In this document: in pieces, positions 1,140 to 56,559 of the stretch
How positions within the stretch are numbered: position 1 is the first letter of the stretch
How the letters are laid out: every line of letters starts with the position of its first letter
Assembly: GCA_964016885.1 (NCBI GenBank)
Contig: OZ024757.1
Location: forward strand, 17,670,001-17,734,000
Direction: 5' to 3'
Source: Eledone cirrhosa
Taxonomy: Eukaryota
Length of the DNA: 64,000 nt
Notes under the pieces: model-generated
What the model saw: the letters and a program-made list of their open reading frames with translations, nothing else
Told to the model about the DNA's origin: nothing
Databases searched by the model: none
Made by a program: the position numbers and the translations under genes

Positions 1140-3277
1140 CGACAGATAGATATAGGATCTCTATTAATAAAACACCATAGAAACTTCCTGTTAGATATAC
1201 CCTTGTAGGAGGCTAGGTAAACCTACATAGGTGTGACATGTAACAACATGATAGGATAGGGGCCTCGATCAATAAAACACTAGAGAAACCTCATATACAG
1301 ACTTATGGGATTTCTCAATTCAGTCCGAAGTGAAGATTGAGCACAACAAACCAGATATTGTCATAATTGAGAAGAGAGAAACTGTACCCTCATTGAGTAC
1401 CCCAGGACTTACATATATACAACATACAGAAAATAGTACTACTAGGTACTGTATATATATATTACATAGAGTACCCCCAGGACATATATAAATATGATCG
1501 TGTCTACAAGACATGTATCTGACGGTGTTTCAGCTAACTCTTTACAGTATTAGAACCTTATTGTGTACAGCCACCAACGAGACACCAACAAATGTCCCTT
1601 CACCAACAAAGCAGCTCCCTGATATACAGATATTCAATCCCTACTGGGAGCGTGCTGGCTTCCATAAAAAATCATTAGAGAGGTTTTCCAGAGTTCCTCG
1701 CGATACTGTTATCTTTTACTCTGGTAGTGGCTCGGTTGTCCACCCCTTTACTTTTCAATTTACATACATCTGTATGTATATATATTTGCGTATAATACCA
1801 ATATGCACACTACATATGCTAGCAGAAATAAAGATAACTTTAATTTACTTGAAACGAGGTGCAGCTAAATATAATATATTTTATAATATAAGGTAGTAAA
1901 TAACACAATAAATAGACAGAGGTAATTTAAATAATAAAGACAGTCATGATAACAATATATTTTATATTACATGTAACAGTGGAATCTGGCTATTGAAAAA
2001 TAACACATTTCAGTTTGGAAGTATTTTTCTCTATATATAAAGTGACGAGGGTGAGATATCTTCTCTCAACGTTGTTATATATTTTCACTTTTATATAATT
2101 ACTGTATCGTTGAAAGGTTCACATAATTCTAATATTTACATACATTAATATAGACTTCAAATTAATTTTTGTCAACTTACCTTCTTCACATATAATCAAT
2201 GTGTTGTTTTTACTAAACAACAACAGAAATAATCTCTTTGTTGTTAAATTCGAAGTTTCAATGATTTTATCAGCTTTATTTCACGACATTAACGTTGGTT
2301 GTATCGTCTTCATCTTTTGTCATAAATTGATATCTTGTAAGAATAAAGTAGTGAGGCTGACTTTATGTATTTAGCCACAGATTTGGCAGAAAATATGTAT
2401 ATATTAGGTTGATATGTGGTCTAAAATATATATTGTCCATAAATGACTGATAGCAGATGTTCTGGTGAAATAGTCGTTTTTCTACTTCAGATTATAATGG
2501 AACTCTTAGTAGACACAATTGTAAAGTAAGAATAGATATGGCCGTATGTGCATATATTTAATTGTTATACAAGATATATTAGATTAATTAAAGTTGTAAT
2601 GAAGACAGCAGGTACGCGGTTTCGTTGACACTGTTTCAACTGTCTTACCGGTGTCATAAGTTAAAAGTCCCCCGATACAATTTAATACATTCAGACAGTT
2701 CCAATCGTATCAAGTCGATGGTAAATGAAAAAGCATCACCCAGTAAAATATCAATTATATATCGACGAGGAAACATCTACGTAATATCTCACAGTGTTAG
2801 AAATAGCAGCTATATTATCCATTACAGCTTTGTTTTTTGTTTAAACTCTCTTGAGTTTGGTTATACAATAAACAACAGCAAATCTTTTGTATAAACTGGA
2901 AGACCGTCAGAATATCATTCTCATTTTTGTTATGTATGTATGTATGTATGTTCTTCTGGTTTTATAATTTCACAAATTTTTACCAATAGAGAGAGAGTCG
3001 GTTTCTAACAGACACAAGACTCTCATTGGAATTTACACATCAACGAGGTTGATTATGTATGCATGCATGTGTAGATATGGATGTTATTGTATGTGTGGAT
3101 GTGTATATGCTTTGAGTTGTATGTGTGCATGTGTATATGCTTTGTATCTGTACATGTGTATATGCAGTTATTAGATGCAACATTTTTGGAATGTTTTACA
3201 TATTTTTACTGTTCCATTAATGGATTGTACTTGTAATTTTCTAACTAGTTGTGTTCTTTCTGTTCCTGTGAAGCCTA

Positions 3278-3325
3278 GCTATTATAGGTCTTAATTTGAG
3301 ATCTCAAATTAAGACCTATAATAGC
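3278..3325. repeat. Perfect 48-bp palindrome at the 5' truncation point of the Penelope RT
   Basis: GCTATTATAGGTCTTAATTTGAGA|TCTCAAATTAAGACCTATAATAGC; the right half is RT coding sequence (LKLRPIIA). Confidence 0.95.
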
Positions 3326-4858
3326 AGGCCCCGCTTGCGAAACCCACCGCCTTAGCAACTTCATTGATACCCTTCTCAAGCCTTTTCTCTAACACATCAA
3401 AAGCTATATAAGGGACGACCTAGATATGCTCAATCACCTCCCTAATATGCCCCTTTCTGAACAAACCCTACTAGTGACGTTCGATGTAGTCAACCTATAC
3501 TCCAATATGCCCCACAACCTAGGAATAGAAGCGATCCAATTCTGGCTGGATAATTACCACAATGAACTCCCACAACGCATCAAAAAGGAATTCGTGATAG
3601 AGGGACTCAAATTTATCTTGGAGAACAATTACTTCGTTTTCAATAACAAACCCTACAGGCAGAAATCTGGGACCTCTATGGGAACGAAAACATGCCAACC
3701 TAGTCATGGGATACCTGGAAATCACCCTCTACACTAAAGTACTAAACAAATTTGGAAACACTCTCCACTTACACATAGAAAGGAACTGGAAGCGATATCT
3801 AGATGACTGCTTCATCCTTTGGCACGAAAACATCGAGAAACTTAAAGAATTTCACACCCTTATAAATGGGCTCAACACGAATATTAACTTCACGATGGAA
3901 TACAGCCATCAACAACTCCCCTTCCTCGACATCCTCATTAAGATTCATAACAAAAAAAATAGAAACAGACATATACTACAAGCCCACAGACTCCAAGCAA
4001 TATCTTCCTTTCAACTCTTGCCACCCTAGACACGTTAAAATTAATATTCCCTACAACTTAGCCAAGAGAATCTGTACTATAGTCTCCAATAAAAACACCT
4101 GTTACTTACGGCTACAAGAACTAAAGGACACACTCATAGGCAGGGACTACCCTGCATCACTAATTGACAATGGAATCCAACGTGCCCTAAAACTCAGTAC
4201 CCAGGACCTTAGACACCCTAAAGTAAATCAACCGAAACTAAAAGCTCTTCCATACATCTCCACACACAACCCCCTCAACAATGAGGCCTTTGACACCATC
4301 CTCCAGAACATCCCTGTGTTAAAAAAGGACCATAGAATGAACCAAATCCTACGAACACACGATATCATAAAGAGCAAAAGACAATCTAAGTCAATGAAAA
4401 TCATCCTAACACATGCCAAAGTACTGCCAACCACAACAACGAAACCCACAGTAAAAAAATGCGATAGACCCAACTGTGGCATATGCATCAACCTAATAGA
4501 GGGTTCGGAATTCTATTTCAAAGAAGGACAACGTTTTATAGTAAAACACAATTTCACATGCGCATCAGAAAATCTAATATATGTATTAACTTGCTCAGGT
4601 TGTCGAAAACAATACATAGGCCAGACCAAAAACAGCCTCCGCCAACGCATGACTGTCCATAGATCCCAAATTAAAATACGGGAATACAGGAAAATAACAC
4701 TGAGTGAACACATTGATACCTGTGCCGCCCAAAATCATCCCAACTTCAGAATCTTTCCCCTCTACAAATTTAAAGATAATACCACCCACACCCAGCGCAT
4801 CAGCAAGGAATCTCACTTTATTAACAAATACGGACCCCGTCTAAACACTTCTCCCTAA
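3300..4858 (+). mobile_element. 5'-truncated Penelope-like retroelement (RT + Cys linker + GIY-YIG endonuclease), frameshifted; Neptune-like
   Basis: LRPIIAGPACETHRLSNFID, TFDVVNLYSN, QKSGTSMGT, RYLDD, LPFLD, YYKPTD..YLPFNSCHP, CDRPNCGIC and NLIYVLTCSGCRKQYIGQT across three overlapping ORFs. A long AC-rich 3' region runs to ~6010. Confidence 0.95.
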
Positions 4859-6014
4859 GACGAACCCACAACATACACACGTCAACATACATACCTACAT
4901 CAGCATACATCCTACATACATCTCTATCCACATATAAACACAATGAGATACGTAAACACACATGTTCTATGGTGCAACACAAATATACACAAATTTGCAT
5001 ACCTTTTGATGTCTATAGATATAAATGTGCCGACACACACACATACATATACGCACACATGCATTGCACACTGATGGGCACATACATATTTGTACACAAG
5101 TATTCCAATACGGCAAGGCCTAATGGATTCCCCTTGCAGTACGTACAATCTGGACACTCACACACACCTTGGTCTTATACCAATACTATATATCATTTCA
5201 CACCTTTTATTATTAAGGTTTTTGATGTTCTATTGAGAGAATCGTTTTTACTGAAAATATCGAATAATGTACACCATTTTTACCAGTATCACAAAAATAC
5301 TGGTCCACCCACACACACATATATACACACACACATACACACACTTCTCCGTATAAGACAAGAGCTGAAAAATATCTTTTAACATGTTAAAATATCACCA
5401 CACACGTACAGACACATTCCTACTGACCGATCCCTCTACCACGAATTACTCTGCTACACACACACACACACACACACTTGTCTTAATAGGCATTTGAACT
5501 GTCAGCAGGCTGCGGTTCGCACACACATCCCTGCTGACCATTATCACAACAACGAACCTCTTTACTACTACTACTACTACTACACACACACACACATATT
5601 TGTCTTGAAAGACTTATTTTTCAGTGGCTTCTCAATCAGCCGAGACAAACCTACATTTGGCGCAAAATCAATTTTTAACATTCACATGACCTCTACCGAC
5701 CAATCAAAATTGTTTTGACCACAAGAATTTTTACATACATCTGGAGCCGCTTTTTTTTTACATAAAACAGGTAGAATTTCCAAAACTAATCAGATTAGAG
5801 CAAACATCACGGGCGCACTATCTCAAAATTATATTTGAAAAGCATTAGAAATGAGCAACGGGTAAAACTTAAAACCTAAACTGAATACTAACCAATACAA
5901 TTACTAATTTTTACTTATTCCCAATTAAACTATTTTTCACTGGGAACAATTTGTGAGCATTTTCTTTTCCTTTTGCCAATATATCATAACTCGTGTGTTA
6001 CACCTCTATTCTTT

Positions 6015-6017
<3 letters not shown>

Positions 6018-11025: not shown

Positions 11026-11204
11026 AAAGACAGAAAACGAAGAAAAAGAAAAAGAAGAAATGCATGGAACAAAATAGAGAGATGGAAAGATAGATAAAGA
11101 GAAGAACTTATCTATCTTATCTTTATCTATCTTTATCTATCTTTCCATCTCTCTATTTTGTTCCATGCATTTCTTCTTTTTCTTTTTCTTCGTTTTCTGT
11201 CTTT
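11026..11204. repeat. Inverted repeat, ~75-bp arms
   Basis: AAAGACAGAAAACGAAG...GATAGATAAAGA with its reverse complement ending ...CTTCGTTTTCTGTCTTT. Confidence 0.9.
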
Positions 11205-11354
11205 CTTTCCTTTTTTTCTCTCTTTTTCTCTCTTTCTCTCTCTCTTTCTTTCTCTCTGTGTACAATTTTGTCACTACCAAATCAACCTTCTCAAATGCAA
11301 GTAGATGTTGTTACGGTATGTCGAATCTATTTATCTATAAAACTGTTTATATTG

Positions 11355-11420
11355 TATTTTGTCTGAGGAAGGCATAGCATATTGTTAATATGATATCCCT
11401 GAAATATATATAATGAAATA
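11355..11420 (+). ncRNA. Type I hammerhead ribozyme motif (family A)
   Basis: TATTTTGT CTGAGGA [AGGCATAGCATATT GTT AATATGATATCCCT] GAAA TATATA TA^ ATGAAATA; stems I and II pair, with G-U pairs and two mismatches. Confidence 0.8.
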
Positions 11421-11599
11421 AATATGGTTTTATAAATATAGTTTCCATTTATTTAATATTGTTAATATTGTAAATATACTCCAAATATTTGTCGAGTGCT
11501 TTTATATCAGTTATAAATATTTACTAGTTGTAACCCAACAATTTAAATATAACTTTCCATATATATGTGTATATATATATATGTGTATATATATATATG

Positions 11600-12522: not shown

Positions 12523-12556
<34 letters not shown>

Positions 12557-12592
12557 TTTTAAAATCCAAATTCAATAAACAGACCAGGATTT

Positions 12593-12652
12593 TTTCATTC
12601 TGAGGATTGAAAGCAAAATCTTTTGCTTTTAAGAAACCACTGGTAAATGGAA
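12593..12652 (+). ncRNA. Type I hammerhead ribozyme motif, GUA cleavage triplet
   Basis: TTTCATT CTGAGGA [TTGAAAGCAAA ATCT TTTGCTTTTAA] GAAA CC ACT GG TA^ AATGGAA; all three stems pair and the core is intact. Confidence 0.85.
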
Positions 12653-13564
12653 TAATTGCCTTATGTTGTTTATTACATAACTATTAAGCTCTGTTACCTA
12701 CATAGAGCACTCTTTTTTCCTGGACTTTTCCGACGGAATTACTTCATTTATATATATATATAATTCGTTTTTGAATTTGTTTTACGAGATTTCTTATCTG
12801 AAAATGGGTGTTGAAACATATTGTTATACTTTGGTGTCTGTGTTTTTATTGGCAACATGACCCTCCCAAAGTATAACTATATATTTTATGGCATTTTTTA
12901 AAACATGATGGAGCTCATCTCCGCTCCAGTTTTGAACACAGCAGATTTCCTCCAGAGAAGAACAGAGAGTGAGAGAATAGAAGTGAGAAAGAGACTTAGA
13001 AGAAGAATCGACACCAGTACATGACTGGTGATTTTTTTTATCGACCTCAAAAATATGAAAGGCAAAGTTGACCTTAGTGGGATTTGAGAGAGCAGAGATC
13101 CAGGACAAAGAGCACAGAACATGCTACGAGGGGCGGCTGAGAGGTTCATGGGTTGACTTAGATACTCTCATGGAATGACCAAATGAGGCTTATTTTTCAA
13201 AAAGGTCCCCCAAAAGAAACAATACAGTTATTAATAAGAAGAGTTGAAATTAATGCATGCAAGATTTCACAACTTTATCATCACCCCTTCATAATCGGCC
13301 TATGAACTTTTCAGCTGATGTTCTAACGACCCTGCCAATTTACTAATTAAGCTAATAACCGTATTAATTTTACTCTAAATTTAAAACCAGCTTAGAATAA
13401 AGTGTTGGTCAATCAAATGTTTAATCTTTGAGATTTAATGAGTTTCATTTTGTTTAGTTAGTTCTTCCATTGAAAATATGATGATAAGTTCATTATGGTA
13501 ATTTTTGATAATAGTGTCGTGAAGAGTGTGGCTTAGTGGTTTGAGTGCTCAGCTCACAATAGTG

Positions 13565-14031: not shown

Positions 14032-14630
14032 CACCTGTAGCATGACATGTTGACAGCAACAGCTATAGGTGCGTGTCATTATCAAATATATGGAGAGATA
14101 TTAAGTTTCTAAGAGGTCTTGATGAAGCTGTCCTGAAGAACGTTGTCATGGCAACCGGCTGCTACATCAGCAGCAGTGAGCACCTGGGGATAGTTTACAT
14201 TCAAGGTTCTTCTTAGGCGAGAGATTCCACCGTGTAAATCAATCAATGCATACACACACACACACCCTCACACACAGGCACACACACACACACACACACA
14301 CAGGCACAGAGGCACACACACACACACACAGGCACACACACTCACACACACAGGCCACACACACTCACTCACACACAGGCACACACACAGACAGACAGAC
14401 ACACACATATATATATATGTGTATACCCTTCATTAGGAATGTATACCCCCCGCCAGTCTGTATATATATATGTGTGTATGTATATATATATATATATGCA
14501 GAAGTTATATTTAATTTGTTGGGATTCCAACAAACTTAAAAGTTTATAACTGATATAAAGCACTCAACAATTTACTGGAGTAAATATTCAATATATTAAT
14601 AAATGGAAACTATATTTATAAAACCATAAT

Positions 14631-14694
14631 TATTTTATTATATATATTTCAAGGGCAACAAGGCAGTCTTGGTGCGCTTTCATCAGATAAAATA
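14631..14694 (-). ncRNA. Type I hammerhead ribozyme motif (family A), left arm of a fold-back at ~14640-14830
   Basis: Reverse strand: TATTTTAT CTGATGA [AAGCGCACCAAG ACTGC CTTGTTGCCCTT] GAAA TATATA TA^ ATAAAATA, with a perfect 8-bp stem I. The mirror + strand copy (core 14787-14793) has lost its cleavage site by deletion. Confidence 0.85.
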
Positions 14695-15403
14695 CAAAAT
14701 TTGTTTTATAAATATTGACATAACTGTGGAAAACAACCTTGACGGTTATGTCAATATTTATAAAACAAATTTTTTTTGTATTTTATCTGATGAAAGCGCA
14801 CCAAGACTGCCTTGGATGCCCTTGAAATATAGTTTCCATTTATTAATATATTGTATATATATGTGTGTGTATATATATATATGTGTATGTATACATATAT
14901 ATATATAGAGAGAGAGATATATATATATATACGTATGCATACTTACATTTATGTATCAGCTGTGTTAGGGCGCGAAATAAAATTTAATCTTATTTTTAAT
15001 ATTCAGCAAGGCCAGCCGTAACTCGCCCGGTATGCAAATGAGGCTACTCAGCCGATGTGTACTTAAGAAAATACTATATATTTTCAACCATTCAACACGT
15101 TGGCAGTGGTATACAGTCCTGATCAAGAGTAATGACCCAGAAACAAGTTGATTGTTCCTCAAAGCCAGTGCTGAACAAACGGATGACAAATTGTCGTCGG
15201 CACGGCACAGCTTTAATCAGGGCGTTTGTTTACAAATGAATTGAAAGTTATTATTAATGTTAGATATAACCCATGCGTAAATATGTATATGTATACACAC
15301 ACACACATATACATGTGTGTGTGGGTACGTATGCATACTTACATATATATATATATATGTGTGTGTACGTATGCATACTTACATATATATATATCTATAT
15401 ATA

Positions 15404-15745: not shown

Positions 15746-16277
15746 ATATATATATATATTACTCTTTTACCTGTTTCAGCCATCCGGCTGAGGCCATGCT
15801 GAGGCACCGCCCTTGAGTAATATATATATATTACTAAAATTCTGTGATTGCTTGCTTGCTTGTCTGTAATGTAATGTAATACACCCAAAAGGGCGCATAA
15901 TGGGGAAATACTATGTTTAATTAAAAATGTTTTTAATTAAACATACAATATATTGCCAAATATACTAATATACTATACATACATTCATGTATACAACGCT
16001 ATTTCAGAGCACCAATACTAATATATATATATATATAAATATAAATTCAGCGAGAATCGCATTTTGGCGGGTAGAATAAGCGAACGTAACGCACATTCCG
16101 AGTCATGCTGGCAAGCGCTCCATGAGCTAAAAGACCAGAGCAATAAACATAGGTTATAAAGGCCATACAAACTAAGAAGGCGGTCAAGAAGCTATAGACC
16201 ACCTAAGACAAAAAACAAGTCAAGCTAAACAGGTCAGACAAAATAAATGACATAATTATATATATATATACATATAC

Positions 16278-16308
<31 letters not shown>

Positions 16309-16316
<8 letters not shown>

Positions 16317-16420
16317 AAAGTTTGTCCTTCATCAGTGATCTTCCAACCATCATAGGCATTTCATCGCTTTAAAGGATGATGGTTGGAAGATCACTGATGA
16401 AGGACAAACTTTTTTCATAT
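16309..16420. repeat. Inverted repeat (45-bp arms) containing a truncated CTGATGA hammerhead half
   Basis: ATGAAAAAAGTTTGTCCTTCATCAGTGATCTTCCAACCATCAT and its reverse complement at 16376-16420. Confidence 0.9.
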
Positions 16421-16456
16421 GTAACCCATTTGCAACTCCGCAGCGCCCTTATTATC

Positions 16457-20218: not shown

Positions 20219-20366
20219 GTATATATATATATAAGCAAAGTGATATTTAATTTGTTGGTTATTCAGCACATTTATTTATAACAGATTCGAAGCACTCTAC
20301 AGTATTCTTCTGGAGTATAATATCAATAATATTAATAAATGGAAACTATATTTATAAAACCATATT

Positions 20367-20427
20367 TATTCTATTATATATATTTCAAGGGTACCAAAAC
20401 TTTGGTACGCTCTCATCAGATAAAATA
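20367..20427 (-). ncRNA. Type I hammerhead ribozyme motif (family A)
   Basis: Reverse strand: TATTTTAT CTGATGA [GAGCGTACCAA AGTT TTGGTACCCTT] GAAA TATATA TA^ ATAGAATA. Confidence 0.85.
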
Positions 20428-21460
20428 CAGAGCTTGTTTTATAAATATTGACATATCCAGGCATGAGACCTTAACGGTCCAAGTTTTACCTGGATAGGTA
20501 TATATATGTATATATATATAACCAGATTACCTCTAACTGGATTACCTATAACGATAACTTGTTATCCCATATATATATATATGAACAGAAGCCCCCTCAA
20601 TTCAATCTATACATTGACAAATTGACAATCATATGGATCATTTTGCATATATGTACTCTGTGTTTTTGCATTTATTCATTATTGGTGCTTTTCTTTTGTG
20701 TACTTTATGTCTATTTTTCTTTGGTTTTGTTCCATGTGATGGAAATTATGACTGTGTACCAGATTGACTACTGCCTTGAATACTGTAGTTTACCCTTCGT
20801 TCTAATGTACGGCACTATCGTTCAATATATGGATAGTGTAACTGTGACATTGGAACTCCTCTCAGAACTTCTTACTTAAACATCTCTCTCCATATTATTT
20901 ACTCACTTCAATCTATGTTTTTTTACTCACCTCAATCCAGATTCTCACTTGAAAAATTTTTTAATTTTTAATTGTTATTTTTTAATTGCTTAATTTATAA
21001 TTTTTGATTTAGGATTTTAATTTTTATTTTCAACTCTGACTCATAACTTCCAATGTGAAACCATGATACCTAGAATTAAGTATATTTTCTCTTGGGAGTT
21101 GATGGTCAGTCGTACTGTCTATGCTTGGTGAGAGGTAGTATTGTGACCTGTAAAAACTAACACTCTCCCATCCCCTCTGGCTTTCGGCTGACTGCCACAG
21201 ACGGGATGGGTAGCAGTAAACTATGGGACAGGCCTAAATGGGTCATTGTTTGGCTGAGAGGGTGAACTGACTAAGCGAATTTCGTTGAAATCTGCGGTAG
21301 CTAATGATCAACCTCCTTTGGACATGCACCTGCGCAGACCGGTGGGGGTGAATTGGTACTCACAGGGGAACAGATGAAAAACCCAAAAGCACACACTTCA
21401 TCCGTTCCGATGTTGATTCAACTTGGATTGCCTCGGAAACATAACCTTATTATGTAACAA

Positions 21461-30974: not shown

Positions 30975-31320
30975 AGGATTCCTAGTAAATGCCCACTTGA
31001 CGGTTGTGCCTCTGTAGCAATATAGTATATAAATGTGCGGTAAATACCCACCATACGAGTAATTCCTACATTGGGGCCACAGCTAATCAGGTTAAGTCTA
31101 GGTACAATTCCAATACACATTCGTTTAAGAATAACAAGCTGAGGCATACTACTTCTTTAGCACATTATATTACTAACTTAGTCAAATCTAAATCCACCTA
31201 CAAATCGCAATGGGAAATTCTGGATAGATCTACCTCTTACAATGGAAATAAAAAATCATGTTATATATATTTATCCGAAGCTTACTATATTACAACATCG
31301 AATCCTAGCCTTATAATAAG
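30975..31320 (+). mobile_element. Penelope-like GIY-YIG endonuclease remnant
   Basis: CPLDG/CLCSNIVYKC...SYIGAT...KSRY...SFKN...TSLAHYI...WEIL. Confidence 0.8.
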
Positions 31321-31757
31321 GCACACACACAACCACACCCGTGAAACCCCCGTACGCTCGACTCTTTTTTATTAATTTTTGTATTATGAATTCAGAATTG
31401 ATTTCATCATGTACCCCAATTGAAGACTAAATGGAATTTAGAATAACATTTTTCTATACAACATGTTTTACTCTCTTCTAATTTATAAGGAGCACTTTTA
31501 TTCCTAAGCAACGCGAGGTGCGTCTTTTAGAAGGCCTGCAGTTGGCCCTTTATAGATTTGTCTGTCTGCCTGTGTGTCATACATGGCGCAAAGAGCTATG
31601 TTGTGGTAACCTGTCTTGCTAGAAATGACAGCGAAATAAAACCTTAGCTTTTACCTCGCCTGCGCAGACCCCACCTCCACACAGATTGTGGTGTATCTAT
31701 CTCTGTATTCCTATCTATCCATGTATCTCTCTATCTATCTCTCCATGTGTCTATCCG

Positions 31758-33571: not shown

Positions 33572-33669
33572 GTATATATTTATATATATATCTATCTATC
33601 TATCCAAGAAAAACTTGAACCGTTAAGTTATGTTTCTTGGTTATGTCAAAATTTGTAAAACAAACTTTG

Positions 33670-33731
33670 TATTTTATCTGATGAAAGCATACCAAAGTTT
33701 TTGGTACCCTTGAAATATATATAATAGAATA
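33670..33731 (+). ncRNA. Type I hammerhead ribozyme motif (family A)
   Basis: TATTTTAT CTGATGA [AAGCATACCAAA GTT TTTGGTACCCTT] GAAA TATATA TA^ ATAGAATA. Confidence 0.85.
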
Positions 33732-33958
33732 AATATGGTTTTATAAATATAATTTCCATTATAATTTCCATTTATTTTAATATCATTGAATATTATACTC
33801 CAGATAACTTGTTGAGTGCTCTAAATCAGTTATAAACATTTATATTTGTTGAATTACCAACAAATTTAATATCCCTTTTGCTTATATATATATATGTTTA
33901 TATATATTTATATATATATATATGTATGTATAGGTATATATATAGTCAAACACACACA

Positions 33959-37380: not shown

Positions 37381-37440
37381 TATAAAATTATTAAGTCAAA
37401 TATGTAAAATTTGGCTTCGTTTATTATAAATTATAGATAT

Positions 37441-37494
37441 ACTGCTATATATATTTCGGTGACAGCCATCATAGCTGTGACCTCTTCAGGCAGT
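37441..37494 (-). ncRNA. Type I hammerhead ribozyme motif
   Basis: Reverse strand: ACTGC CTGAAGA [GGTCACAGCTA TGA TGGCTGTCACC] GAAA TATATA TA^ GCAGT; perfect stem I and G-C closing pair on stem II. Confidence 0.85.
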
Positions 37495-38169
37495 CCGAAT
37501 CGGTGTGGGAAGGACAGGTACACATTTTGTTGAAGTGTGTTTTACTCTGTCAATACATATTTTCCACTCTGCCTGTACTATTAGGGTTCCTCCTCTCCCG
37601 GATACCGTGGGTCGGGGGCTATCCCTATCATGGCGCCTCGGATTATAAGATATATTTTGGCCATGGTATATATATATATACCAATATTCATGTATGCAAA
37701 TTTCTATCCCTAAATGCATTAGAATATCAATAACATCGAAAACAACAATGACACCAAAGAAAGAAACATAAGCATGCACATGTCCAAGGCACATAAAGCT
37801 GTGCCCAGTTAAATACAGTGACACATGCAATGAAAATAAAACTAATAATAATAATTGTTTTCCTTTTGTAATGTTTCTGTAGCAATCAGTTGTTAGGTGA
37901 AGTGTGTTTATAGGCCTCAGATCAGTCCCCGGTCTCAGAGCCCTAATATATCACGCAGGATTCTGGTGGTGCTAGTGATGGTAGAAATTTGGGCACTGCC
38001 TATGAAGTTCGGGATCCCAAGGCTTTTGATAAAAGACGTAAGGCGTTCAGAGACCGTGACGGTTGGTACGACTTCTGTCTCTACATGGTGCTCAGTTCAA
38101 ATAGGCATGCAAGCTCTGCATACTTATTGATCTTTTCCATTTCCTTTTCATCCACATTGTGGTTTTGAG

Positions 38170-38214
<45 letters not shown>

Positions 38215-38327
38215 TAAGTGAATTAGATTAATTAAATAGATACCAAAATACAAAATAAGGACAAAAGGGAACGAAAAGAGAAAAAGAAACAGTAAAATAG
38301 ATTCTCCCTGTTGAATGAGAGGAAGCA

Positions 38328-42604: not shown

Positions 42605-42632
<28 letters not shown>

Positions 42633-42635
<3 letters not shown>

Positions 42636-42800
42636 TGTTATACTTGGGGAGGGTCATATTTGTGTAATATTACACAAATATGACCCTCCCCAAGTATAAC
42701 AATATATATATATATATATGTATATATGTATTGTTATACTTGGGGAGGGTCATATTTGTGTAATATTACACAAATATGACCCTCCCCAAGTATAACAATA
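42633..42800. repeat. Two tandem perfect 72-bp palindromes (42633-42704, 42729-42800)
   Basis: TATTGTTATACTTGGGGAGGGTCATATTTGTGTAAT|ATTACACAAATATGACCCTCCCCAAGTATAACAATA, present twice. Confidence 0.95.
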
Positions 42801-43708
42801 TTTGTTTCGACACACGATTTCATATCAAAAACCTCGCAAAACTAATTCATCGCCGTTATGTATATATGTATAAGGTGGTGGATTGGCAGTATCGGTAGAG
42901 GGTCGGACGCCATGCTTTCTAGCATAGTTACGTCCCTTTACGATCTGAGTTCAAATCCCGCCGAGGTTAACTTTGCCTTTCATCCTTACGGGGTCGATAA
43001 AATAAAGTACCAGTAATGAACTGGTGATTGCTGGCCTTGTGCCTAAAGTAGAAACAGTTATGTATATATGTATATACATGTATGCATGTGTATGTATATA
43101 CGCGGGAACATAGAAATAATCGGGTTGGATACCCGATCACGTGGTTAAACCACTGGGAGTGAAGGACCCCTAGCCTTTGTCACGGCATTCTTCTAGGAGA
43201 AGGGAACTCAGGAAACTGGGATAACTCCGATATATAACCTGCAGCTCAGTAGTTACCGATGATATTGATCTTTTCTTCTTTTCGGGTTATAGCCACTGTC
43301 GCTCAGAGAGTGGGATTGGCTCAGTGCACGCATTGCACGATAGAATTAATTAAAAATTTATTATTAATGGTATATCATGCAATGGCCATACTCGATAACG
43401 AGGGGACAGCCATCATGTATGTATGTGTATGTATATATGTATGTATTATGTATGTGTATGTATGTATCTATGTATATACATATATGTATGTATGTATGTA
43501 TATATGCATGTATGTATGTATATATGCATGTATGTATGTATGTATGTATGTGTGTATGTGTGTGTGTGTGTGTGTGTGTATGTCCCTCATAAACAATACA
43601 TCATGGTGATGATAATGATGATGGAGGTAGTGGTTGTGGTGGTGGTGTTGATGGTGATGATGATGATGATGGTGATGATAGTGATAGTGATGGTGGTGAT
43701 GGTGATGG

Positions 43709-43809: not shown

Positions 43810-43936
43810 GAAGTTGTGCTAGTATTTTTTTTCGGTTTTGAATATATAATACGACTTTGGTCCGCTGGATGCCGAAGTAAATACATGGGAGTTTCCGGAA
43901 GACTTCGGTTTGCCAGGAAACCAATATCTGTAATCG
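43810..43936 (+). CDS. KCNQ1: KCNQ1 exon 3 (S2, S2-S3 linker), 127 nt
   Basis: CACAG| [43 protein letters not shown]|GTAGGT. Confidence 0.97.
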
Positions 43937-44988
43937 GTAGGTTATCTCCCTTTCCTATTATTTTATAGTTTTGCTGATTGGTATATAAATATAGTTTACC
44001 CCAGATAGGTGATAGATGTGCATAGCCACCGGCATATCACAATGTTTGCATAACTGCACCTATGATTGCGTAAGCATCTGATGATGTCACATGAATAACT
44101 ATGTAACAGAACTATATATCATGCTATAGACAATTTAATCCCGTCATAACTACCATTATATGTAAATGTGGTTGGTGTTAGGAAGGGCATCCAGCTGTAG
44201 AAAACCCGCCAGACAGTCCTATGTGAGCAAGACAACCACTCTTGCCTCAAGTGGGAAAACTCCCGTCCAAACCCATGCAAGCGTGGAACATGGACGTTAA
44301 ACGATGATGATGATGATGATGATGATGATGATATCTCGGTCTATTTCCATTCATATGTTCATATTCACAACAACGCAGCACGCCATTTGTCATTCACATA
44401 TATTTTTTCCCTTCGCTGTGGTTCATATTTTTCTGTCACCTTACTGCTATCATCTTTCTCTATCCCCCTTCACCTCTTGCTTTCTTCCACCCCCGCTGCT
44501 GGTCACACACTCTCGGCTGGCCCCTTCCTCACACTTTCACTCACTCACTCTCTGCTACTCCTCCTCTCTCACTGCCTCCCGTTTGACCTGCGTGAAATTC
44601 TTTCCTCTCTCACTTTTCGCGTGGCTCGGACGCGTCTGTTTCTTCTCGTCATTTGATTTGTCGGACTTAAGCCCACAAGATTCATTGACTTGTCTCCCTT
44701 TTCCTCTGTTTACATTGCGTTACTACCATGTTGTTTGTTTACTTTCCTCTGTCCCGATAACTTAATTTAGTTATCGCTCGCACTGATTTTAGGTATCTAG
44801 TCTTTAATGCGAAGAAATACCAATGATAATCAGCAGACTACTGATGATGGACATTCCTGTTTCTCAGTCTATTTTCATTCATATATATATATATACACAT
44901 ATATATATATACATTTCGAGTTTCAAATTATTCTATAAACTTCTAAAGCACTCGCGCTTCAACTCGATTTTTGAGACAACTTGTTTAT

Positions 44989-45035
<47 letters not shown>

Positions 45036-45485
45036 AGGCAGAGAACTTAAATGAATATATATATATATATATATATATGTAGATAAATCTACCAAAAGTT
45101 TACGGTAGTGTCCAATCCGTATGAAGAACTCAATGTAATCCGGATATCATGAAAAGAGATTGGTCAATTCAAAACCTGTTCCCAAACAGACCTATTGTAT
45201 TGAATCTTTGTTCTTATCAATAAACAAGTATCATTATTTCTGAAGACAGCATATATATGTGAAGGTATGTATATTCCCTCTGATAGTTTGTATAAATATT
45301 GTACATAGATCTATAGAATATGCATACCAATTCTAACACATATATATCCTAGAAACGATCGTAAAATAATGAATTTTTTTTGTTTAATATAAGGAACTGT
45401 TTCTTTGTTTATTCATTATTTTTTAAATAATTTATATATATATATATATAATATAAGATCAAAAGATGGTTAAAGGAGTTCTATG

Positions 45486-45556
45486 TATTTTATTATGCGC
45501 ATTTCAAAAACAAACATCATCATGCAATAATATTTGTGTTTTCATCAGATAAAACA
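45486..45556 (-). ncRNA. Type I hammerhead ribozyme motif, left arm of fold-back 45448-45728
   Basis: Exact reverse complement of the 45620-45690 motif. Confidence 0.85.
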
Positions 45557-45619
45557 GGAGAACATGATATGAAGGCTAAAAAACACTTGTGGATAGTGCA
45601 GTTTTAAATCAACATATCC

Positions 45620-45690
45620 TGTTTTATCTGATGAAAACACAAATATTATTGCATGATGATGTTTGTTTTTGAAATGCGCATAATAAAATA
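45620..45690 (+). ncRNA. Type I hammerhead ribozyme motif, sense to KCNQ1, in intron 3
   Basis: TGTTTTAT CTGATGA [AAACACAAATATTAT TGCATG ATGATGTTTGTTTTT] GAAA TGCGCA TA^ ATAAAATA; palindromic stem III TGCGCA. Confidence 0.87.
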
Positions 45691-45811
45691 CATGGAACTC
45701 CTTTAACCATCTTTTGATCTTATATTATGTATACTCCAGTCCTACAAACTGTAGAGTGCTTCTTATCCGATATCTGCATTGCTTTATTGTACTACAATAA
45801 AACTCACCTCC

Positions 45812-45869
<58 letters not shown>

Positions 45870-46669: not shown

Positions 46670-47330
46670 TCTGATGCGAAAAGTATTTATAGGGTAATTG
46701 GGACGCAGACAATTCAAGTAAAGGAACCTCCTTCAATTCATGAAATTGAAGAATTCTGGAAAAAAGTATGGAATACAGAAAAATCCTATAATGCAATGCA
46801 GAATGGGTTAAGAACTTTGAAGAAACATACAATAATTTAGAAAGACAAACTTGGCAAGACATAACTATGGAAGAACTGGAGTTGGCACTAAAGAAAGCAA
46901 ACATATTGAAATCCCTTGGCATTGATAAAGTGCCAAACCTCTGGTTATCTTCTTTAAATGTTACCCGTGATATGTTGGTTATAACGAACCTATGCACAAC
47001 CCTGAAATAACTCTTGATTGGTTTGCACAAGGTATGATATATCTCTTGTCAAAGTCGACAGAAACTAATATTCAAAAACATTATCGCCCTATCACTTGCC
47101 TTCCCACATCATACAAGATTCTCACATCAATCTTGACTGAGACAACCTAACCTACAAATTTATGGATGAAAATCATCTATTCCCTATTGAACAGAAAGGG
47201 TGACGCCGTGGGTCTTACGGGTGGAAACCCCCCCATGATTCTGGAAAACTCATAAAAAGTATAGAAATCTGTGAGAACTGTTTGGATTGACTATAAGAAA
47301 GAACTTGACAGTGTTCGCCACTAATATATC
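46670..47330 (+). mobile_element. Degenerate R4/Dong-like LINE RT fragment
   Basis: IEEFWKKVW, KSLGIDKVPNLW, YRPITCLPTSYKILTSIL, FPIEQKG*RRGSYG, WIDYKKELDSV. Confidence 0.85.
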
Positions 47331-49410
47331 AAGAAAGAACTTGACAGTGTTCCCCACTAATATATCAAGAAAGAACTTGACAGTGTTCCCCACTAATATA
47401 TCAAGAAAGAACTTGACAGTGTTCGCCACTAATATATCAAGAAAGAACTTGACAGTGTTCCCCACTAATATATCAAGAAAGAACTTGACAGTGTTCGCCA
47501 CTAATATATCAAGAAAGAACTTGACAGTGTTCCCCACTAATATATCAAGAAAGAACTTGACAGTGTTCGCCACTAATATATCAAGAAAGAACTTGACAGT
47601 GTTCGCCACTAATATATCAAGAAAGAACTTGACAGTGTTCCCCACTAATATATCAAGAAAGAACTTGACAGTGTTCGCCACTAATATATCAAGAAAGAAC
47701 TTGACAGTGTTCCCCACTAATATATCAAGAAAGAACTTGACAGTGTTCGCCACTAATATATCAAGAAAGAACTTGACAGTGTTCCCCACTAATATATCAA
47801 GAAAGAACTTGACAGTGTTCCCCACTAATATATCAAGAAAGAACTTGACAGTGTTCCCCACTAATATATCAAGAAAGAACTTGACAGTGTTCGCCACTAA
47901 TATATCAAGAAAGAACTTGACAGTGTTCCCCACTAATATATCAAGAAAGAACTTGACAGTGTTCCCCACTAATATATCAAGAAAGAACTTGACAGTGTTC
48001 CCCACTAATATATCAAGAAAGAACTTGACAGTGTTCCCCACTAATATATCAAGAAAGAACTTGACAGTGTTCCCCACTAATATATCAAGAAAGAACTTGA
48101 CAGTGTTCCCCACTAATATATCAAGAAAGAACTTGACAGTGTTCGCCACTAATATATCAAGAAAGAACTTGACAGTGTTCGCCACTAATATATCAAGAAA
48201 GAACTTGACAGTGTTCCCCACTAATATATCAAGAAAGAACTTGACAGTGTTCCCCACTAATATATCAAGAAAGAACTTGACAGTGTTCCCCACTAATATA
48301 TCAAGAAAGAACTTGACAGTGTTCGCCACTAATATATCAAGAAAGAACTTGACAGTGTTCGCCACTAATATATCAAGAAAGAACTTGACAGTGTTCCCCA
48401 CTAATATATCAAGAAAGAACTTGACAGTGTTCCCCACTAATATATCAAGAAAGAACTTGACAGTGTTCGCCACTAATATATCAAGAAAGAACTTGACAGT
48501 GTTCGCCACTAATATATCAAGAAAGAACTTGACAGTGTTCGCCACTAATATATCAAGAAAGAACTTGACAGTGTTCCCCACTAATATATCAAGAAAGAAC
48601 TTGACAGTGTTCCCCACTAATATATCAAGAAAGAACTTGACAGTGTTCCCCACTAATATATCAAGAAAGAACTTGACAGTGTTCGCCACTAATATATCAA
48701 GAAAGAACTTGACAGTGTTCCCCACTAATATATCAAGAAAGAACTTGACAGTGTTCCCCACTAATATATCAAGAAAGAACTTGACAGTGTTCGCCACTAA
48801 TATATCAAGAAAGAACTTGACAGTGTTCCCCACTAATATATCAAGAAAGAACTTGACAGTGTTCCCCACTAATATATCAAGAAAGAACTTGACAGTGTTC
48901 GCCACTAATATATCAAGAAAGAACTTGACAGTGTTCCCCACTAATATATCAAGAAAGAACTTGACAGTGTTCGCCACTAATATATCAAGAAAGAACTTGA
49001 CAGTGTTCCCCACTAATATATCAAGAAAGAACTTGACAGTGTTCCCCACTAATATATCAAGAAAGAACTTGACAGTGTTCGCCACTAATATATCAAGAAA
49101 GAACTTGACAGTGTTCCCCACTAATATATCAAGAAAGAACTTGACAGTGTTCCCCACTAATATATCAAGAAAGAACTTGACAGTATTCCCCACTAATATA
49201 TCAAGAAAGAACTTGACAGTGTTCGCCACTAATATATCAAGAAAGAACTTGACAGTGTTCCCCACTAATATATCAAGAAAGAACTTGACAGTGTTCCCCA
49301 CTAATATATCAAGAAAGAACTTGACAGTGTTCCCCACTAATATATCAAGAAAGAACTTGACAGTGTTCGCCACTAATATATCAAGAAAGAACTTGACAGT
49401 GTTCCCCACA
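47295..49410. repeat. 36-bp tandem repeat, about 59 near-identical units (AAGAAAGAACTTGACAGTGTTC[G/C]CCACTAATATATC)
   Basis: Direct reading; essentially one biallelic position. Confidence 0.98.
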
Positions 49411-52325
49411 CATGGATTCTGAAAACTTTGGAATGTTCTGAATATTTCCCCAGTAATATCACACTTTCTGAAATACAACAAGTATGTATGGGTTTGAAAT
49501 AAGAAGGCAACAAGTCGGAATTAATTGAGGGAGGTGAGGTAGAAGGCAAATATTGGAAGAAGGTGGAAAATAAAAAGACATGAATGACTGATTGCTATTT
49601 TTAAAAAAACAACGACGACCTCAAAAGTCAATCCCCGATTTTTCCGAGATTTTCCCTTAGTGACCCCCCCCCCCCCGCCCCATTTGACAATGGATGGGTA
49701 ATCTGAAATATTGGGACTAATATATCAAGAAAGAACTTGACAGTGTTCGCCACTAATATATCAAGAAAGAACTTGACAGTGTTCCCCACACATGGATTCT
49801 GAAAACTTTGGATGTTCTGAATATTTCCCCAGTAATATCACACTTTCTGAAATACAACAAGTATGTATGGGTTTGAAATAAGAAGGCAACAAGTCGGAAT
49901 TAATTGAGGGAGGTGAGGTAGAAGGCAAATATTGGAAGAAGGTGGAAAATAAAAAGACATGAATGACTGATTGCTATTTTTAAAAAAACAACGACGACCT
50001 CAAAAGTCAATCCCCGATTTTTCCGAGATTTTCCCTTAGTGACCCCCCCCCCCCCCCCGCCCCATTTGACAATGGATGGGTAATCTGAAATATTGGGACT
50101 AATATATCAAGAAAGAACTTGACAGTGTTCGCCACTAATATATCAAGAAAGAACTTGACAGTGTTCCCCACACATGGATTCTGAAAACTTTGGATGTTCT
50201 GAATATTTCCCCAGTAATATCACACTTTCTGAAATACAACAAGTATGTATGGGTTTGAAATAAGAAGGCAACAAGTCGGAATTAATTGAGGGAGGTGAGG
50301 TAGAAGGCAAATATTGGAAGAAGGTGGAAAATAAAAAGACATGAATGACTGATTGCTATTTTTAAAAAAACAACGACGACCTCAAAAGTCAATCCCCGAT
50401 TTTTCCGAGATTTTCCCTTACTGACCCCCCCCCCCCCGCCCCATTTGACAATGGATGGGTAATCTGAAATATTGGGACTAATATATCAAGAAAGAACTTG
50501 ACAGTGTTCGCCACTAATATATCAAGAAAGAACTTGACAGTGTTCCCCACACATGGATTCTGAAAACTTTGGATGTTCTGAATATTTCCCCAGTAATATC
50601 ACACTTTCTGAAATACAACAAGTATGTATGGGTTTGAAATAAGAAGGCAACAAGTCGGAATTAATTGAGGGAGGTGAGGTAGAAGGCAAATATTGGAAGA
50701 AGGTGGAAAATAAAGAGACATGAATGACTGATTGCTATTTTTAAAAAAACAACGACGACCTCAAAAGTCAATCCCCGATTTTTCCGAGATTTTCCCTTAC
50801 TGACGCCCCCGCCCCCATTTGACAATGGATGGGTAATCTGAAATATTGGGACTAATATATCAAGAAAGAACTTGACAGTGTTCGCCACTAATATATCAAG
50901 AAAGAACTTGACAGTGTTCCCCACACATGGATTCTGAAAACTTTGGATGTTCTGAATATTTCCCCAGTAATATCAAACTTTCTGAAATATAACAAGTATG
51001 TATGGGTTTGAAATAAGAAGGCAACAAGTCGGAATTAATTGAGGGAGGTGAGGTAGAAGGCAAATATTGGAAGAAGGTGGAAAATAAAAAGACATGAATG
51101 ACTGATTGCTATTTTTAAAAAAAACAACGACGACCTCAAAAGTCAATCCCCGATTTTTCCGAGATTTTCCCTTACTGACCCCCCGCCCCATTTGACAATG
51201 GATGGGTAATCTGAAATATTGGGACTAATATATCAAGAAAGAACTTGACAGTGTTCGCCACTAATATATCAAGAAAGAACTTGACAGTGTTCCCCACACA
51301 TGGATTCTGAAAACTTTGGATGTTCTGAATATTTCCCCAGTAATATCAAACTTTCTGAAATATAACAAGTATGTATGGGTTTGAAATAAGAAGGCAACAA
51401 GTCGGAATTAATTGAGGGAGGTGAGGTAGAAGGCAAATATTGGAAGAAGGTGGAAAATAAAAAGACATGAATGACTGATTGCTATTTTTAAAAAAAACAA
51501 CGACGACCTCAAAAGTCAATCCCCGATTTTTCCGAGATTTTCCCTTACTGACCCCCCGCCCCATTTGACAATGGATGGGTAATCTGAAATATTGGGACTA
51601 ATATATCAAGAAAGAACTTGACAGTGTTCCCCACTAATATATCAAGAAAGAACTTGACAGTGTTCCCCACACATGGATTCTGAAAACTTTGGATGTTCTG
51701 AATATTTCCCCAGTAATATCACACTTTCTGAAATATAACAAGTATGTATGGGTTTGAAATAAGAAGGCAACAAGTCGGAATTAATTGAGGGAGGTGAGGT
51801 AGAAGGCAAATATTGGAAGAAGGTGGAAAATAAAAAGACATGAATGACTGATTGCTATTTTTAAAAAAACAACGACGACCTCAAAAGTCAATCCCCGATT
51901 TTTCCGAGATTTTCCTTTACTGACCCCCCCCGCCCCCATTTGACAATGGATGGGTAATCTGAAATATTGGGACTAATATATCAAGAAAGAACTTGACAGT
52001 GTTCCCCACACATGGATTCTGAAAACTTTGGATGTTCTGAATATTTCCCCAGTAATATCACACTTTCTGAAATATAACAAGTATGTATGGGTTTGAAATA
52101 AGAAGGCAACAAGTCGGAATTAATTGAGGGAGGTGAGGTAGAAGGCAAATATTGGAAGAAGGTGGAAAATAAAAAGACATGAATGACTGATTGCTATTTT
52201 TAAAAAAACAACGACGACCTCAAAAGTCAATCCCCGATTTTTCCGAGATTTTCCCTTACTGACCCCCCCCCCCCGCCCCCATTTGACAATGGATGGGTAA
52301 TCTGAAATATTGGGACTAATATATC
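49380..52325. repeat. Tandem array of eight ~340-380-bp units, each including 1-2 of the 36-mers
   Basis: AAGTATGTATGGGTTTG recurs at ~49480, 49859, 50241, 50620, 50994, 51367, 51740 and 52079; units differ mainly in poly-C length. Confidence 0.96.
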
Positions 52326-55474: not shown

Positions 55475-56199
55475 GTAAGTTTCTTCTTCTTCTTCTTCTT
55501 CTTCTTCTTCTTCTTCTTCTCTCTCTCTTTATATACACATATATGTATACAAGTGAAAGAAGATATATACATATATATGTGTATATATATATATACACAT
55601 ATATATATATATATATTTCTTGTTCATCCATTTCGCATTTTATATACCACACGCAATACTTCAAGAAAGCTACAGCTTCCTCATATATTCCCCTCCCCTT
55701 GGTTACTGCTACATACATATACGACTGCCTCTTGTTACCCCCTCTCTATCGGTATGTTTTCTTTTTCTTCTCTTTATTTTCTTTCTCTTCGCTATCATCT
55801 CTGTTTTATCTTTTCCTTCCTTAATAACTTCCTGAAGTTATTAACGTGCTGTGGATAGATGTATTGTCTTTAATGCATCGAAACATCTGAGATCCGCAGC
55901 AGACAACTGAAGAGGGGATTTGTCTTATGTTTGTGTTTCCTTTACATTTCTAAACACACTACTCTACACACACACACACACACATCATTGTGTATATGTG
56001 TGTGTACATAAATCTATAGATACCTGTGTGTCTGCACGCATACATACACACACCCATATATATATATGTAGAAGTTCTATTTAAATTGTTGGGATACAAC
56101 AAGCAAATACTTTTATAACTGATATAAAGCACTCAACAAATTATTGGAGTAAAAATACGATATATTAACAAATGGAAACTATATTTATAAAACCATATT

Positions 56200-56264
56200 T
56201 ATTTCATTATACATATTTCAAGGACACCAAGTTAAATTATGGTGTGCTTTCATCAGATAAAATA
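56200..56264 (-). ncRNA. Type I hammerhead ribozyme motif (family A), left arm of fold-back 56159-56507
   Basis: Reverse strand: TATTTTAT CTGATGA [AAGCACACCA...TGGTGTCCTT] GAAA TATGTA TA^ ATGAAATA. Confidence 0.83.
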
Positions 56265-56401
56265 TACTATAGATCAGTTTTATAAATAAATATTGACATA
56301 CCCTTAAAGAATGCGACCATTTCTATCCGGGAGCTTCCAACAGATATGGTCGCTTTCTTTATGGGTATGTCAATATTTATTTATAAAACTGATCTATATT
56401 A

Positions 56402-56466
56402 TATTTTATCTGATGAAAGTACACCATAATTTAACTTGGTGTCCTTGAAATATGTATAATGAAATA
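56402..56466 (+). ncRNA. Type I hammerhead ribozyme motif (family A), sense to KCNQ1, in intron 7
   Basis: TATTTTAT CTGATGA [AAGTACACCA TAATTTAACT TGGTGTCCTT] GAAA TATGTA TA^ ATGAAATA. Confidence 0.83.
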
Positions 56467-56504
56467 AATATGGTTTTATAAATATAGTTTCCATTTGTTA
56501 ATAT

Positions 56505-56559
<55 letters not shown>

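What the first reader, a model, noticed from the sequence alone, without database searches (positions are those of the whole stretch)
11340..11560. Family A: short TA-flanked element whose hammerhead stem II covaries across five loci
Seen: copies at ~11340, 14500-14850, 20234-20460, 33630-33885 and 56070-56510 share the core and a ~140-nt tail (AAATATGGTTTTATAAATATAGTTTCCATT...GAGTGCT...CAGTTATAAA) ending at a (TA)n tract. Stem II differs (GCACCAAG/CTTGGATGC, GTACCAAA/TTTGGTAC, ACACCA/TGGTGT, CATATT/AATATG) yet always pairs, and a pyrimidine mismatch at the fourth position is retained. Inference: structure was selected during propagation, so the ribozyme is functional for the element. No ORF is evident, fitting a retrozyme or solo Penelope pseudo-LTR.
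Basis: partly seen in the sequence, partly recalled or inferred. Interest (0 to 1): 0.7.

Follow-up and report, generated by a model that had tools for sequence, protein, structure and literature searches.

The report
Penelope end-stubs carrying a hammerhead ribozyme
These short repeats carry a complete hammerhead-ribozyme pattern whose stems stay paired as the copies diverge, and they are most likely the cut-down end pieces of a Penelope-type jumping gene, a known kind of insertion; self-cutting is predicted, not tested.

Summary
The family is real: five loci with seven arms, plus a relative at 45452-45814. Six arms hold a full type I hammerhead: 8-bp stem I, core, stem II, palindromic 2-bp stem III and an AUA site. 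Stems vary as often as background (22 of 34 columns invariant, against 107 of 166) but stay paired: 3 of 85 cells are broken, against 13.7 in neutral simulations. The 11 core positions never change. "Always pairs" is overstated: 4 of 50 stem II cells are unpaired. The copies sit in (TA)n, two loci are head-to-head inverted pairs, and long and short arms end 92, 92 and 87 nt apart. This is the known inverted pseudo-LTR-plus-tail footprint of Penelope-like elements, with a longer tail than the 30-40 bp published. No tandem copy was found, so a retrozyme is not supported. No parent ORF was linked. No arm starts at the predicted cut site, and AUA with a weak stem III predicts slow cleavage. Selection on the fold is supported; catalysis is untested. 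The scan noted the same layout in other genomes. A stem II position-4 mismatch recurs in three further hammerheads of the window. Verdict: new member of a known kind.

The parts
11318..11558 (+). Copy A1: single arm, hammerhead at 11355-11420 (C3 at 11363, predicted cut after 11412), full tail, ends at (TA)n
11355..11420 (+). Type I hammerhead of A1: stem I 11355-11362 with 11413-11420, core CTGAGGA, stem II with C.C at position 4, GAAA, palindromic stem III, AUA site
11026..11205 (.). Long fold-back upstream of A1, followed by a CT-rich stretch that runs into A1; (TA)n on its left. Possibly the 5' end of the same insertion (not shown)
14498..14736 (-). Copy A2, long arm: hammerhead 14631-14694 (C3 at 14686), full tail
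14737..14855 (+). Copy A2, inverted short arm: core at 14787, a 32-nt deletion removes stem III, the cut site and the 3' strand of stem I; lacks the 92-nt tail
20235..20497 (-). Copy A3: 5' hairpin (about 20452-20497), hammerhead 20367-20427 (C3 at 20419), full tail; (TA)n on both sides
33600..33881 (+). Copy A4: 5' hairpin (about 33602-33643) homologous to that of A3 and starting at the same base, hammerhead 33670-33731 (C3 at 33678, predicted cut after 33723), full tail
56068..56333 (-). Copy A5, long arm: hammerhead 56200-56264 (C3 at 56256), full tail
56334..56507 (+). Copy A5, inverted short arm: intact hammerhead 56402-56466 (C3 at 56410); lacks the 92-nt tail
45452..45814 (.). Relative B6: head-to-head pair with a hammerhead in each arm (C3 at +45628 and -45548), stem III palindrome ATGCGCAT, C.T at stem II position 4, 87-nt tail on the long arm
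   Evidence: (nhmmer E 4.8e-10)
11478..11498 (+). Conserved ACTCC...GAGTG motif in the tail (also in A2-A5, B6 and the element at 21466); predicted hairpin
11527..11545 (+). Predicted terminal hairpin ending in CCAACAA, just before the long 3' end (folds so in 4 of the 5 family A tails, not in A3)

Best explanation
Family A is a set of short non-coding insertions in (TA)n tracts that carry a full type I hammerhead pattern and are most likely pseudo-LTR stubs laid down by an endonuclease-bearing Penelope-like retroelement whose parent was not found. Shown: the hammerhead pattern, its kept pairing, the (TA)n flanks, head-to-head arms at two loci, two fixed 3' ends about 92 nt apart, and 5' ends or fold-back apices 50-78 nt upstream of the core in 4 of 5 loci. 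Inferred: the element's GIY-YIG nuclease cuts (TA)n, and its reverse transcriptase starts at one of two fixed sites on the RNA (about 50 and about 141 nt past the predicted cut). It then copies through an uncut or re-joined hammerhead and stops at or near the RNA's 5' end. The 5' junction is closed by a fold-back, either a short hairpin or a whole second arm. The hammerhead is predicted to be a weak, dimer- or protein-dependent ribozyme that was selected in the source elements; most genomic copies are likely dead ends.
For: Layout matches the published pattern of inverted 5'-truncated copy plus tail on one end, palindromes at the inverted junction, solo pLTRs and microsatellite bias (PMC8557442 passages; PMC3846280 passages). 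Long-minus-short arm is 92, 92 and 87 nt at three loci. Reads show the short end elsewhere in the genome (138 raw reads of X21 and 3 contigs of X5 run into TA at 33759-33760). Two internal start sites explain the tail in vitro (PMC11167929). Short palindromic stem III, long stem II, scattered single motifs and opposite-strand pairs are described for Penelope hammerheads (PMC4209133). A broken RT/GIY-YIG element in the same window has a 24-bp fold-back made of its own ORF at its 5' break. Selection: 3 of 85 stem cells broken against 13.7 simulated (5 of 6000 runs as low), core 11 of 11 invariant. Arms of one locus differ by about 1-3% while loci differ by 12-25%, so most changes predate insertion.
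Against: No autonomous parent was linked. The RT/GIY-YIG element at 3269-6015 shares no sequence with family A (scores within shuffles), and no genome was available. Target-site duplications cannot be read inside (TA)n. The tail is two to three times the 30-40 bp published. A3 and A4 share one 5' start and hairpin, which random truncation does not predict. Stem I shows only one-sided G-U changes, and RNAalifold prefers another register for it. Only five independent loci were compared, and the pairs were chosen after seeing the data.
Confidence: 0.68

Rival explanations
1. Family A is a discrete non-autonomous monomer of about 280 nt (5' hairpin, hammerhead, tail) with its own source lineages, copied in trans by Penelope-like enzymes much as a SINE is copied by a LINE. 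It need not lie at the end of any coding element today.
For: A3 and A4 (88% identical) start at the same base, 78 nt upstream of C3, and share a 5' hairpin (z -4.2 and -3.4) with two pairs changed on both sides. The A5 apex lies 77 nt upstream. Reads of X21 cover this 5' part at a level depth of about 300. No ORF longer than 66 codons in any frame of the five copies.
Against: Sequences upstream of the common boundary are unrelated between A1, A5 and A3/A4, and A1 may run about 290 nt further 5'. A hairpin remade by snap-back at a preferred stop would show the same apparent covariation. A transcript starting in a pseudo-LTR promoter would also give fixed 5' ends.
Confidence: 0.2
2. Family A copies are monomers of a circular-RNA retrozyme: tandem arrays elsewhere are transcribed, cut by paired hammerheads, circularised and reverse-transcribed by Penelope-like enzymes.
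For: Palindromic stem III in all intact arms, changed to another palindrome in B6, fits dimer cleavage. Copies read through the cut site, as a re-joined circle would. Unit size is in the range given for metazoan retrozymes (PMC7229834 passages). Earlier notes report such arrays for other families in this genome (unchecked).
Against: 0 of 5 loci are tandem. No upstream flank was seen to repeat the tail (by eye). The joints listed (15 of 16 shown) include none that links the tail end to the 5' start.
Confidence: 0.08
3. The pairing is a DNA-level by-product: hairpin template switching in a palindrome-prone element (or a MITE) perfects stems without selection on RNA.
For: The elements form fold-backs often, and AT-rich DNA pairs easily; 3 of 6 hammerhead regions fold no better than shuffles (z between -1.1 and 0).
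Against: Such correction would erase the position-4 mismatch, which is kept in 7 of 7 arms and in other families. The unpaired core is invariant, with only N7 changed. All six one-sided cells in stems I and II are G-U on the ribozyme strand. Three of 5 loci have no long inverted arm.
Confidence: 0.04

Closest known systems
Pseudo-LTR hammerheads of Penelope-like elements (Cervera and De la Pena 2014, PMC4209133; parts 1-2 of 4 read)
   Same: Type I topology, long stem II, short palindromic stem III suited to dimers, mostly single scattered motifs, some opposite-strand pairs, families full of compensatory changes, predicted weak monomer activity.
   Different: Here stem I is 8 bp with an outer 11-13 bp helix, G10.1-C11.1 is replaced by A-U or G-U, there is no bulge before 10.1, the site is AUA, and stem II has a fixed C.Y mismatch at position 4. 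No parent ORF was linked.
Insertion units of EN+ Penelope-like elements: inverted pseudo-LTR plus tail (PMC8557442 and PMC3846280, passages read; PMC11167929, parts 1-2 of 4 read)
   Same: Head-to-head inverted copy, palindrome at the junction, tail on one end only, solo copies, microsatellite or AT-rich target, hammerhead near the 3' end, templates that read through the ribozyme.
   Different: The tail is 87-92 nt rather than 30-40 bp; no ORF starts in the hammerhead as in the anole Poseidon element; 5' ends cluster 50-78 nt upstream of the core.
Metazoan non-LTR retrozymes (PMC7229834, passages and Discussion read; bioRxiv 10.64898/2026.07.22.740005, parts 1 and 3 of 5 read)
   Same: Non-coding, about 250-300 nt, AT-rich, type I hammerhead, probably moved by Penelope-like enzymes.
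   Different: Retrozymes are defined by head-to-tail tandem units; none of the five loci is tandem, and no circular RNA was tested.
Rfam hammerhead families
   Same: Same core boxes (CUGANGA, GAAA, UH).
   Different: No Rfam hammerhead match among the 150 of 323 rows shown for the window, nor up to E 10 on copies A4 and A3 searched alone.

Membership tests
Type I hammerhead ribozyme | Core CUGANGA, GAAA and UH in type I order | tested here: met
   6 of 7 family A arms and both B6 arms; A2 short arm lost the UH site
Type I hammerhead ribozyme | Three helices with support from variation | tested here: met
   Stem II: 4 pairs changed on both sides; stem I: 40 of 40 cells paired, G-U changes only; stem III: 2 invariant pairs. 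Stem I register rests on G-U changes, B6 and other families; RNAalifold picks another
Type I hammerhead ribozyme | G10.1-C11.1 pair (highly conserved per PMC4209133) | tested here: not met
   A-U in four loci, G-U in A3. Reads show both 33685 A>G and 33711 T>C variants, linkage not shown
Type I hammerhead ribozyme | Self-cleavage after H17 | not testable with these tools
   Needs a cleavage assay; 0 of 7 arms start at the predicted site
Pseudo-LTR of an EN+ Penelope-like element | Hammerhead near the 3' end with palindromic stem III | tested here: met
Pseudo-LTR of an EN+ Penelope-like element | Adjacent inverted 5'-truncated copy or junction palindrome | tested here: met
   Long inverted arm at 2 of 5 loci and B6, short 5' hairpin at 2 of 5, unclear at A1
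Pseudo-LTR of an EN+ Penelope-like element | Tail present on one end only | tested here: met
   92, 92 and 87 nt, longer than the 30-40 bp published; short end also seen in reads
Pseudo-LTR of an EN+ Penelope-like element | Same sequence at the end of an RT plus GIY-YIG ORF | tested here: inconclusive
   Not in the window; no genome; no hit in metagenome or viral contigs
Pseudo-LTR of an EN+ Penelope-like element | Target-site duplication or microsatellite target | tested here: inconclusive
   (TA)n-type tracts at every long 3' end and on both sides of A2-A5; duplications unreadable there
Non-LTR retrozyme | Head-to-tail tandem units, each with a hammerhead | tested here: not met
   0 of 5 loci in the window; the rest of the genome was not searched
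Non-LTR retrozyme | Circular RNA monomers | not testable with these tools
   No RNA run was available to lay
Non-LTR retrozyme | No coding capacity | tested here: met
   Longest stop-free frame 66 codons, none shared

The most novel reading that the evidence does not exclude
Family A is a free-standing, very abundant Penelope-dependent 'SINE' of about 280 nt with its own fixed 5' hairpin and a 92-nt tail. Its hammerhead fold, with a stem II C.Y mismatch shared by unrelated families, is kept not mainly for cutting but as the handle or switch that Penelope-like proteins read. It would then be a natural data set for asking what these hammerheads do.
Probability: 0.2. Interest if true: 0.55.

Novelty: new member of a known kind. 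Interest (0 to 1): 0.3.

Why it matters
What hammerheads do for Penelope-like elements is still open (PMC8557442; PMC11167929). This family adds a clean case in which the fold and core are kept while the inserted copies come from uncut or re-joined RNA. It gives two precise things to test: two reverse-transcription start sites about 92 nt apart, and a C.Y mismatch at stem II position 4 that recurs in other hammerheads of the window. The overall layout is known, and the scan has met it in several other genomes.

Tried and rejected
No whole genome is held. Rfam gave no hammerhead match; its many microRNA hits fall on microsatellites and palindromes. The repeat finder was swamped by (TA)n. Exact and degenerate pattern scans found 0 loci in metagenome contigs and 0 in viral contigs. 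Earlier-findings look-ups by sequence, near place and relatives returned nothing. No RNA holder listed. A read-level table restricted to the ribozyme was not obtained, so core conservation across the genome rests on 40 of 100 variant rows. The RT/GIY-YIG element at 3269-6015 was tested as parent and rejected. ADAR editing as the source of the G-U pairs: no strand bias, A>G 14 of 78 A columns against T>C 15 of 86 T columns. A shared ORF in or upstream of the element: none. Four apparent nhmmer/BLAST matches (63863-63987, 52964-53055, 38151-38248, 15925-16015) were dropped as low-complexity after reading them. PMC12602865 passages held nothing relevant. Copy number from read depth was not used, because the tool states that depth is no copy number and the raw reads are reduced-representation libraries.

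Full report
Setting. The window is AT-rich, microsatellite-rich animal DNA with an exon of a KCNQ-type potassium channel at 55361-55474. No genome is held. Earlier scan notes call the genome cephalopod-like; I did not test that.

Observation. BLAST and nhmmer with whole elements, not with the core, find five family A loci with seven arms and one distant relative, B6 at 45452-45814. The loci are 75-88% identical. Six arms carry a complete type I hammerhead: an 8-bp stem I (TATTTTRT with ATRRAATA), CTGA(T/G)GA, stem II, GAAA, a 2-bp stem III within the palindrome ATAT(A/G)TAT, and an AUA site. The seventh, at 14787, has a 32-nt deletion that removes the site. A descriptor finds 10 such sites in the window against a mean of 0.01 in 100 shuffles. 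An outer helix of 11-13 bp continues stem I in all five loci. Rfam does not recognise the motif. The family is abundant: 6,215 contigs of run X1 and 22,921 reads of run X21 lie on one 286-base copy, and 43 and 4 contigs from runs of two other organisms.

Is the fold under selection? On the five independent copies, 96 of 100 cells pair; 4 pairs have changed on both sides, all in stem II. Shuffle controls give 4 of 500 for percent paired, 5 of 500 for two-sided cells and 52 of 500 for two-sided pairs; the tool warns that related sequences can reach the first value without structure. I therefore simulated neutral change on the tree of the 166 non-stem, non-core columns. For 17 pairs, 3 of 85 cells are broken against a mean of 13.7 (5 of 6000 runs as low; 0 of 2379 runs with a similar number of variable columns). 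Three pairs are two-sided against 0.55 (95 of 6000). For stem II alone the broken count is weaker (403 of 6000) and the two-sided count stronger (25 of 6000). Stem columns are no more conserved than background (22 of 34 against 107 of 166 invariant). The 11 core positions are all invariant (Fisher P 0.01), and the one change in the core box is at N7, the free position. Limits: five loci, pairs chosen after seeing the data, a perfectly paired root, and a uniform background rate although other stretches are as conserved as the core. In reads, 11 of the 40 variant rows shown fall in the hammerhead and none at a core position, but 60 rows were not shown. A loose-end consensus from 5,059 reads carries the A1-type G-C at pair 2, so that change is not private to one locus. 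The arms of one locus differ by about 1-3%, so most differences between loci predate insertion, unless arms are homogenised later.

Against or limiting. Stem II does not always pair (4 of 50 cells). Stem I has only one-sided G-U changes, and RNAalifold prefers a shifted register that buries the cut region; the hammerhead-compatible fold is 0.4-3.6 kcal/mol above the minimum in family A. B6 breaks the shifted register and keeps the hammerhead one. Pair 10.1-11.1 is A-U or G-U, not G-C, and AUA is described as a slow triplet (PMC3138052, one passage). No arm starts at the predicted cut, so the templates were uncut or re-joined. DNA-level hairpin correction is unlikely, as it would erase the position-4 mismatch. 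ADAR editing left no strand bias.

Anatomy of the insertions. Every long arm ends at a (TA)n tract 141-159 nt after the predicted cut. A2, A5 and B6 are head-to-head pairs whose short arms lack the last 92, 92 and 87 nt; reads show the same short end running into TA elsewhere. The tail holds a conserved ACTCC...GAGTG motif and a predicted terminal hairpin ending in CCAACAA. A3 and A4 have no second arm but share a 5' hairpin that starts at the same base, 78 nt upstream of C3, with two pairs changed on both sides. The fold-back apices of A5 and A2 lie 77 and 50 nt upstream. A1 runs on into unrelated CT-rich sequence and a fold-back at 11026-11205, which may or may not belong to it. A broken RT/GIY-YIG element at 3269-6015 has a 24-bp fold-back of its own ORF at its 5' break, but shares no sequence with family A.

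Mechanism (inferred). A Penelope-like nuclease cuts (TA)n; the reverse transcriptase starts at one of two fixed sites, copies through the hammerhead and stops near the RNA's 5' end; a fold-back closes the 5' junction. Two internal start sites explain the tail for the anole element in vitro, where ribozyme mutants did not impair insertion and cleavage needed protein (PMC11167929, parts 1-2 of 4). The idea that the enzyme runs off a fixed RNA start came from note e1-9871274 and is only partly tested here. Whether the two arms come from two priming events or from snap-back of one cDNA is open. The fixed short end favours two priming events, but it falls in TA-like sequence, where microhomology could do the same. 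The palindromic stem III, changed to another palindrome in B6, points to dimer action in the source elements.

Comparison. Scattered single hammerheads, opposite-strand pairs and compensatory changes are described for Penelope pseudo-LTRs (PMC4209133, parts 1-2 of 4). Inverted copy, 30-40 bp tail, junction palindromes, solo pseudo-LTRs and microsatellite bias are described in PMC8557442 and PMC3846280 (passages). Retrozymes are tandem by definition (PMC7229834, passages and Discussion; bioRxiv 10.64898/2026.07.22.740005, parts 1 and 3 of 5), which these loci are not. Five searches listed no paper on hammerheads in cephalopod Penelope elements; a 2026 Octopus vulgaris repeat annotation lists Penelope families and does not mention ribozymes (passages), and the giant squid paper only counts Rfam hammerheads (passages). 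Supplements and Repbase were not read and may hold this family. The scan's own notes report the same fold-back stub layout in other genomes and other hammerhead families in this one; they are unchecked leads.

What is new here. The family itself, its 87-92 nt tail, clustered 5' ends, and a mismatch with a 5' C at stem II position 4 that recurs in B6 and in the hammerheads at 21466, 37489 and 44078 but not at 12600.

Verdict. Observation confirmed with corrections; interpretation partly supported. New member of a known kind, interest 0.3. Membership as a pseudo-LTR is likely but lacks the parent ORF; catalysis is untested.

Noticed in passing
window 3269-6015 (+): 5'-truncated, frameshifted Penelope-like element (RT plus C-terminal GIY-YIG, C-x4-C-x2-C linker as in Neptune/Nematis) with a perfect 24-bp fold-back of ORF sequence at its 5' break, a 1.1-kb CA-rich 3' region, and no canonical hammerhead core found.
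   Followed up: partly
window 21466 (+), 37489 (-), 44078 (+): Three further type I hammerhead patterns with TATATAT stem III; each has a mismatch with a 5' C at stem II position 4, as in family A. The 21466 element also carries the ACTCC...GAGTG motif before its (TA)n end.
   Followed up: partly
window 12550-12748 (+): Another TA-flanked element with a hammerhead (C3 at 12600), GUA site, near-palindromic stem III and a fully paired stem II.
   Followed up: partly
window 37385-37670 (-) and 37936-38100 (-): A roughly 285-nt hammerhead element sits just after a frame end that resembles, from recall, the C-terminus of restriction-like-endonuclease non-LTR elements; probably a separate insertion into its TA tail.
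   Followed up: no
window 11026-11205: Near-perfect purine/pyrimidine fold-back of about 80 bp directly after a (TA)n tract and upstream of copy A1.
   Followed up: partly
window 16310-16430, 42627-42806, 60405-60480: Further short palindromic inserts beside (TA)n tracts; the one at 16310-16430 has CTGATGA on both arms but no second box nearby.
   Followed up: no
window 31001-31375 (+): Short frame with a GIY-YIG-like look by eye; no Pfam hit and no significant match to the element at 3866.
   Followed up: partly
window 55361-55474 (+), probably also about 43811-43937: Exon of a KCNQ-type potassium channel gene; copy A5 lies about 600 nt downstream of it. The second exon was read from a translation only.
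   Followed up: partly
run X6, record 17: One contig from another organism has an inverted second arm that begins at 33723, the predicted cut site of copy A4; a single record, so only a lead for cleaved templates.
   Followed up: no
window 57285-59155 (+); 47250-49520: RT-bearing LINE fragment with a PHD-type finger; and a long tandem array with a short period.
   Followed up: no
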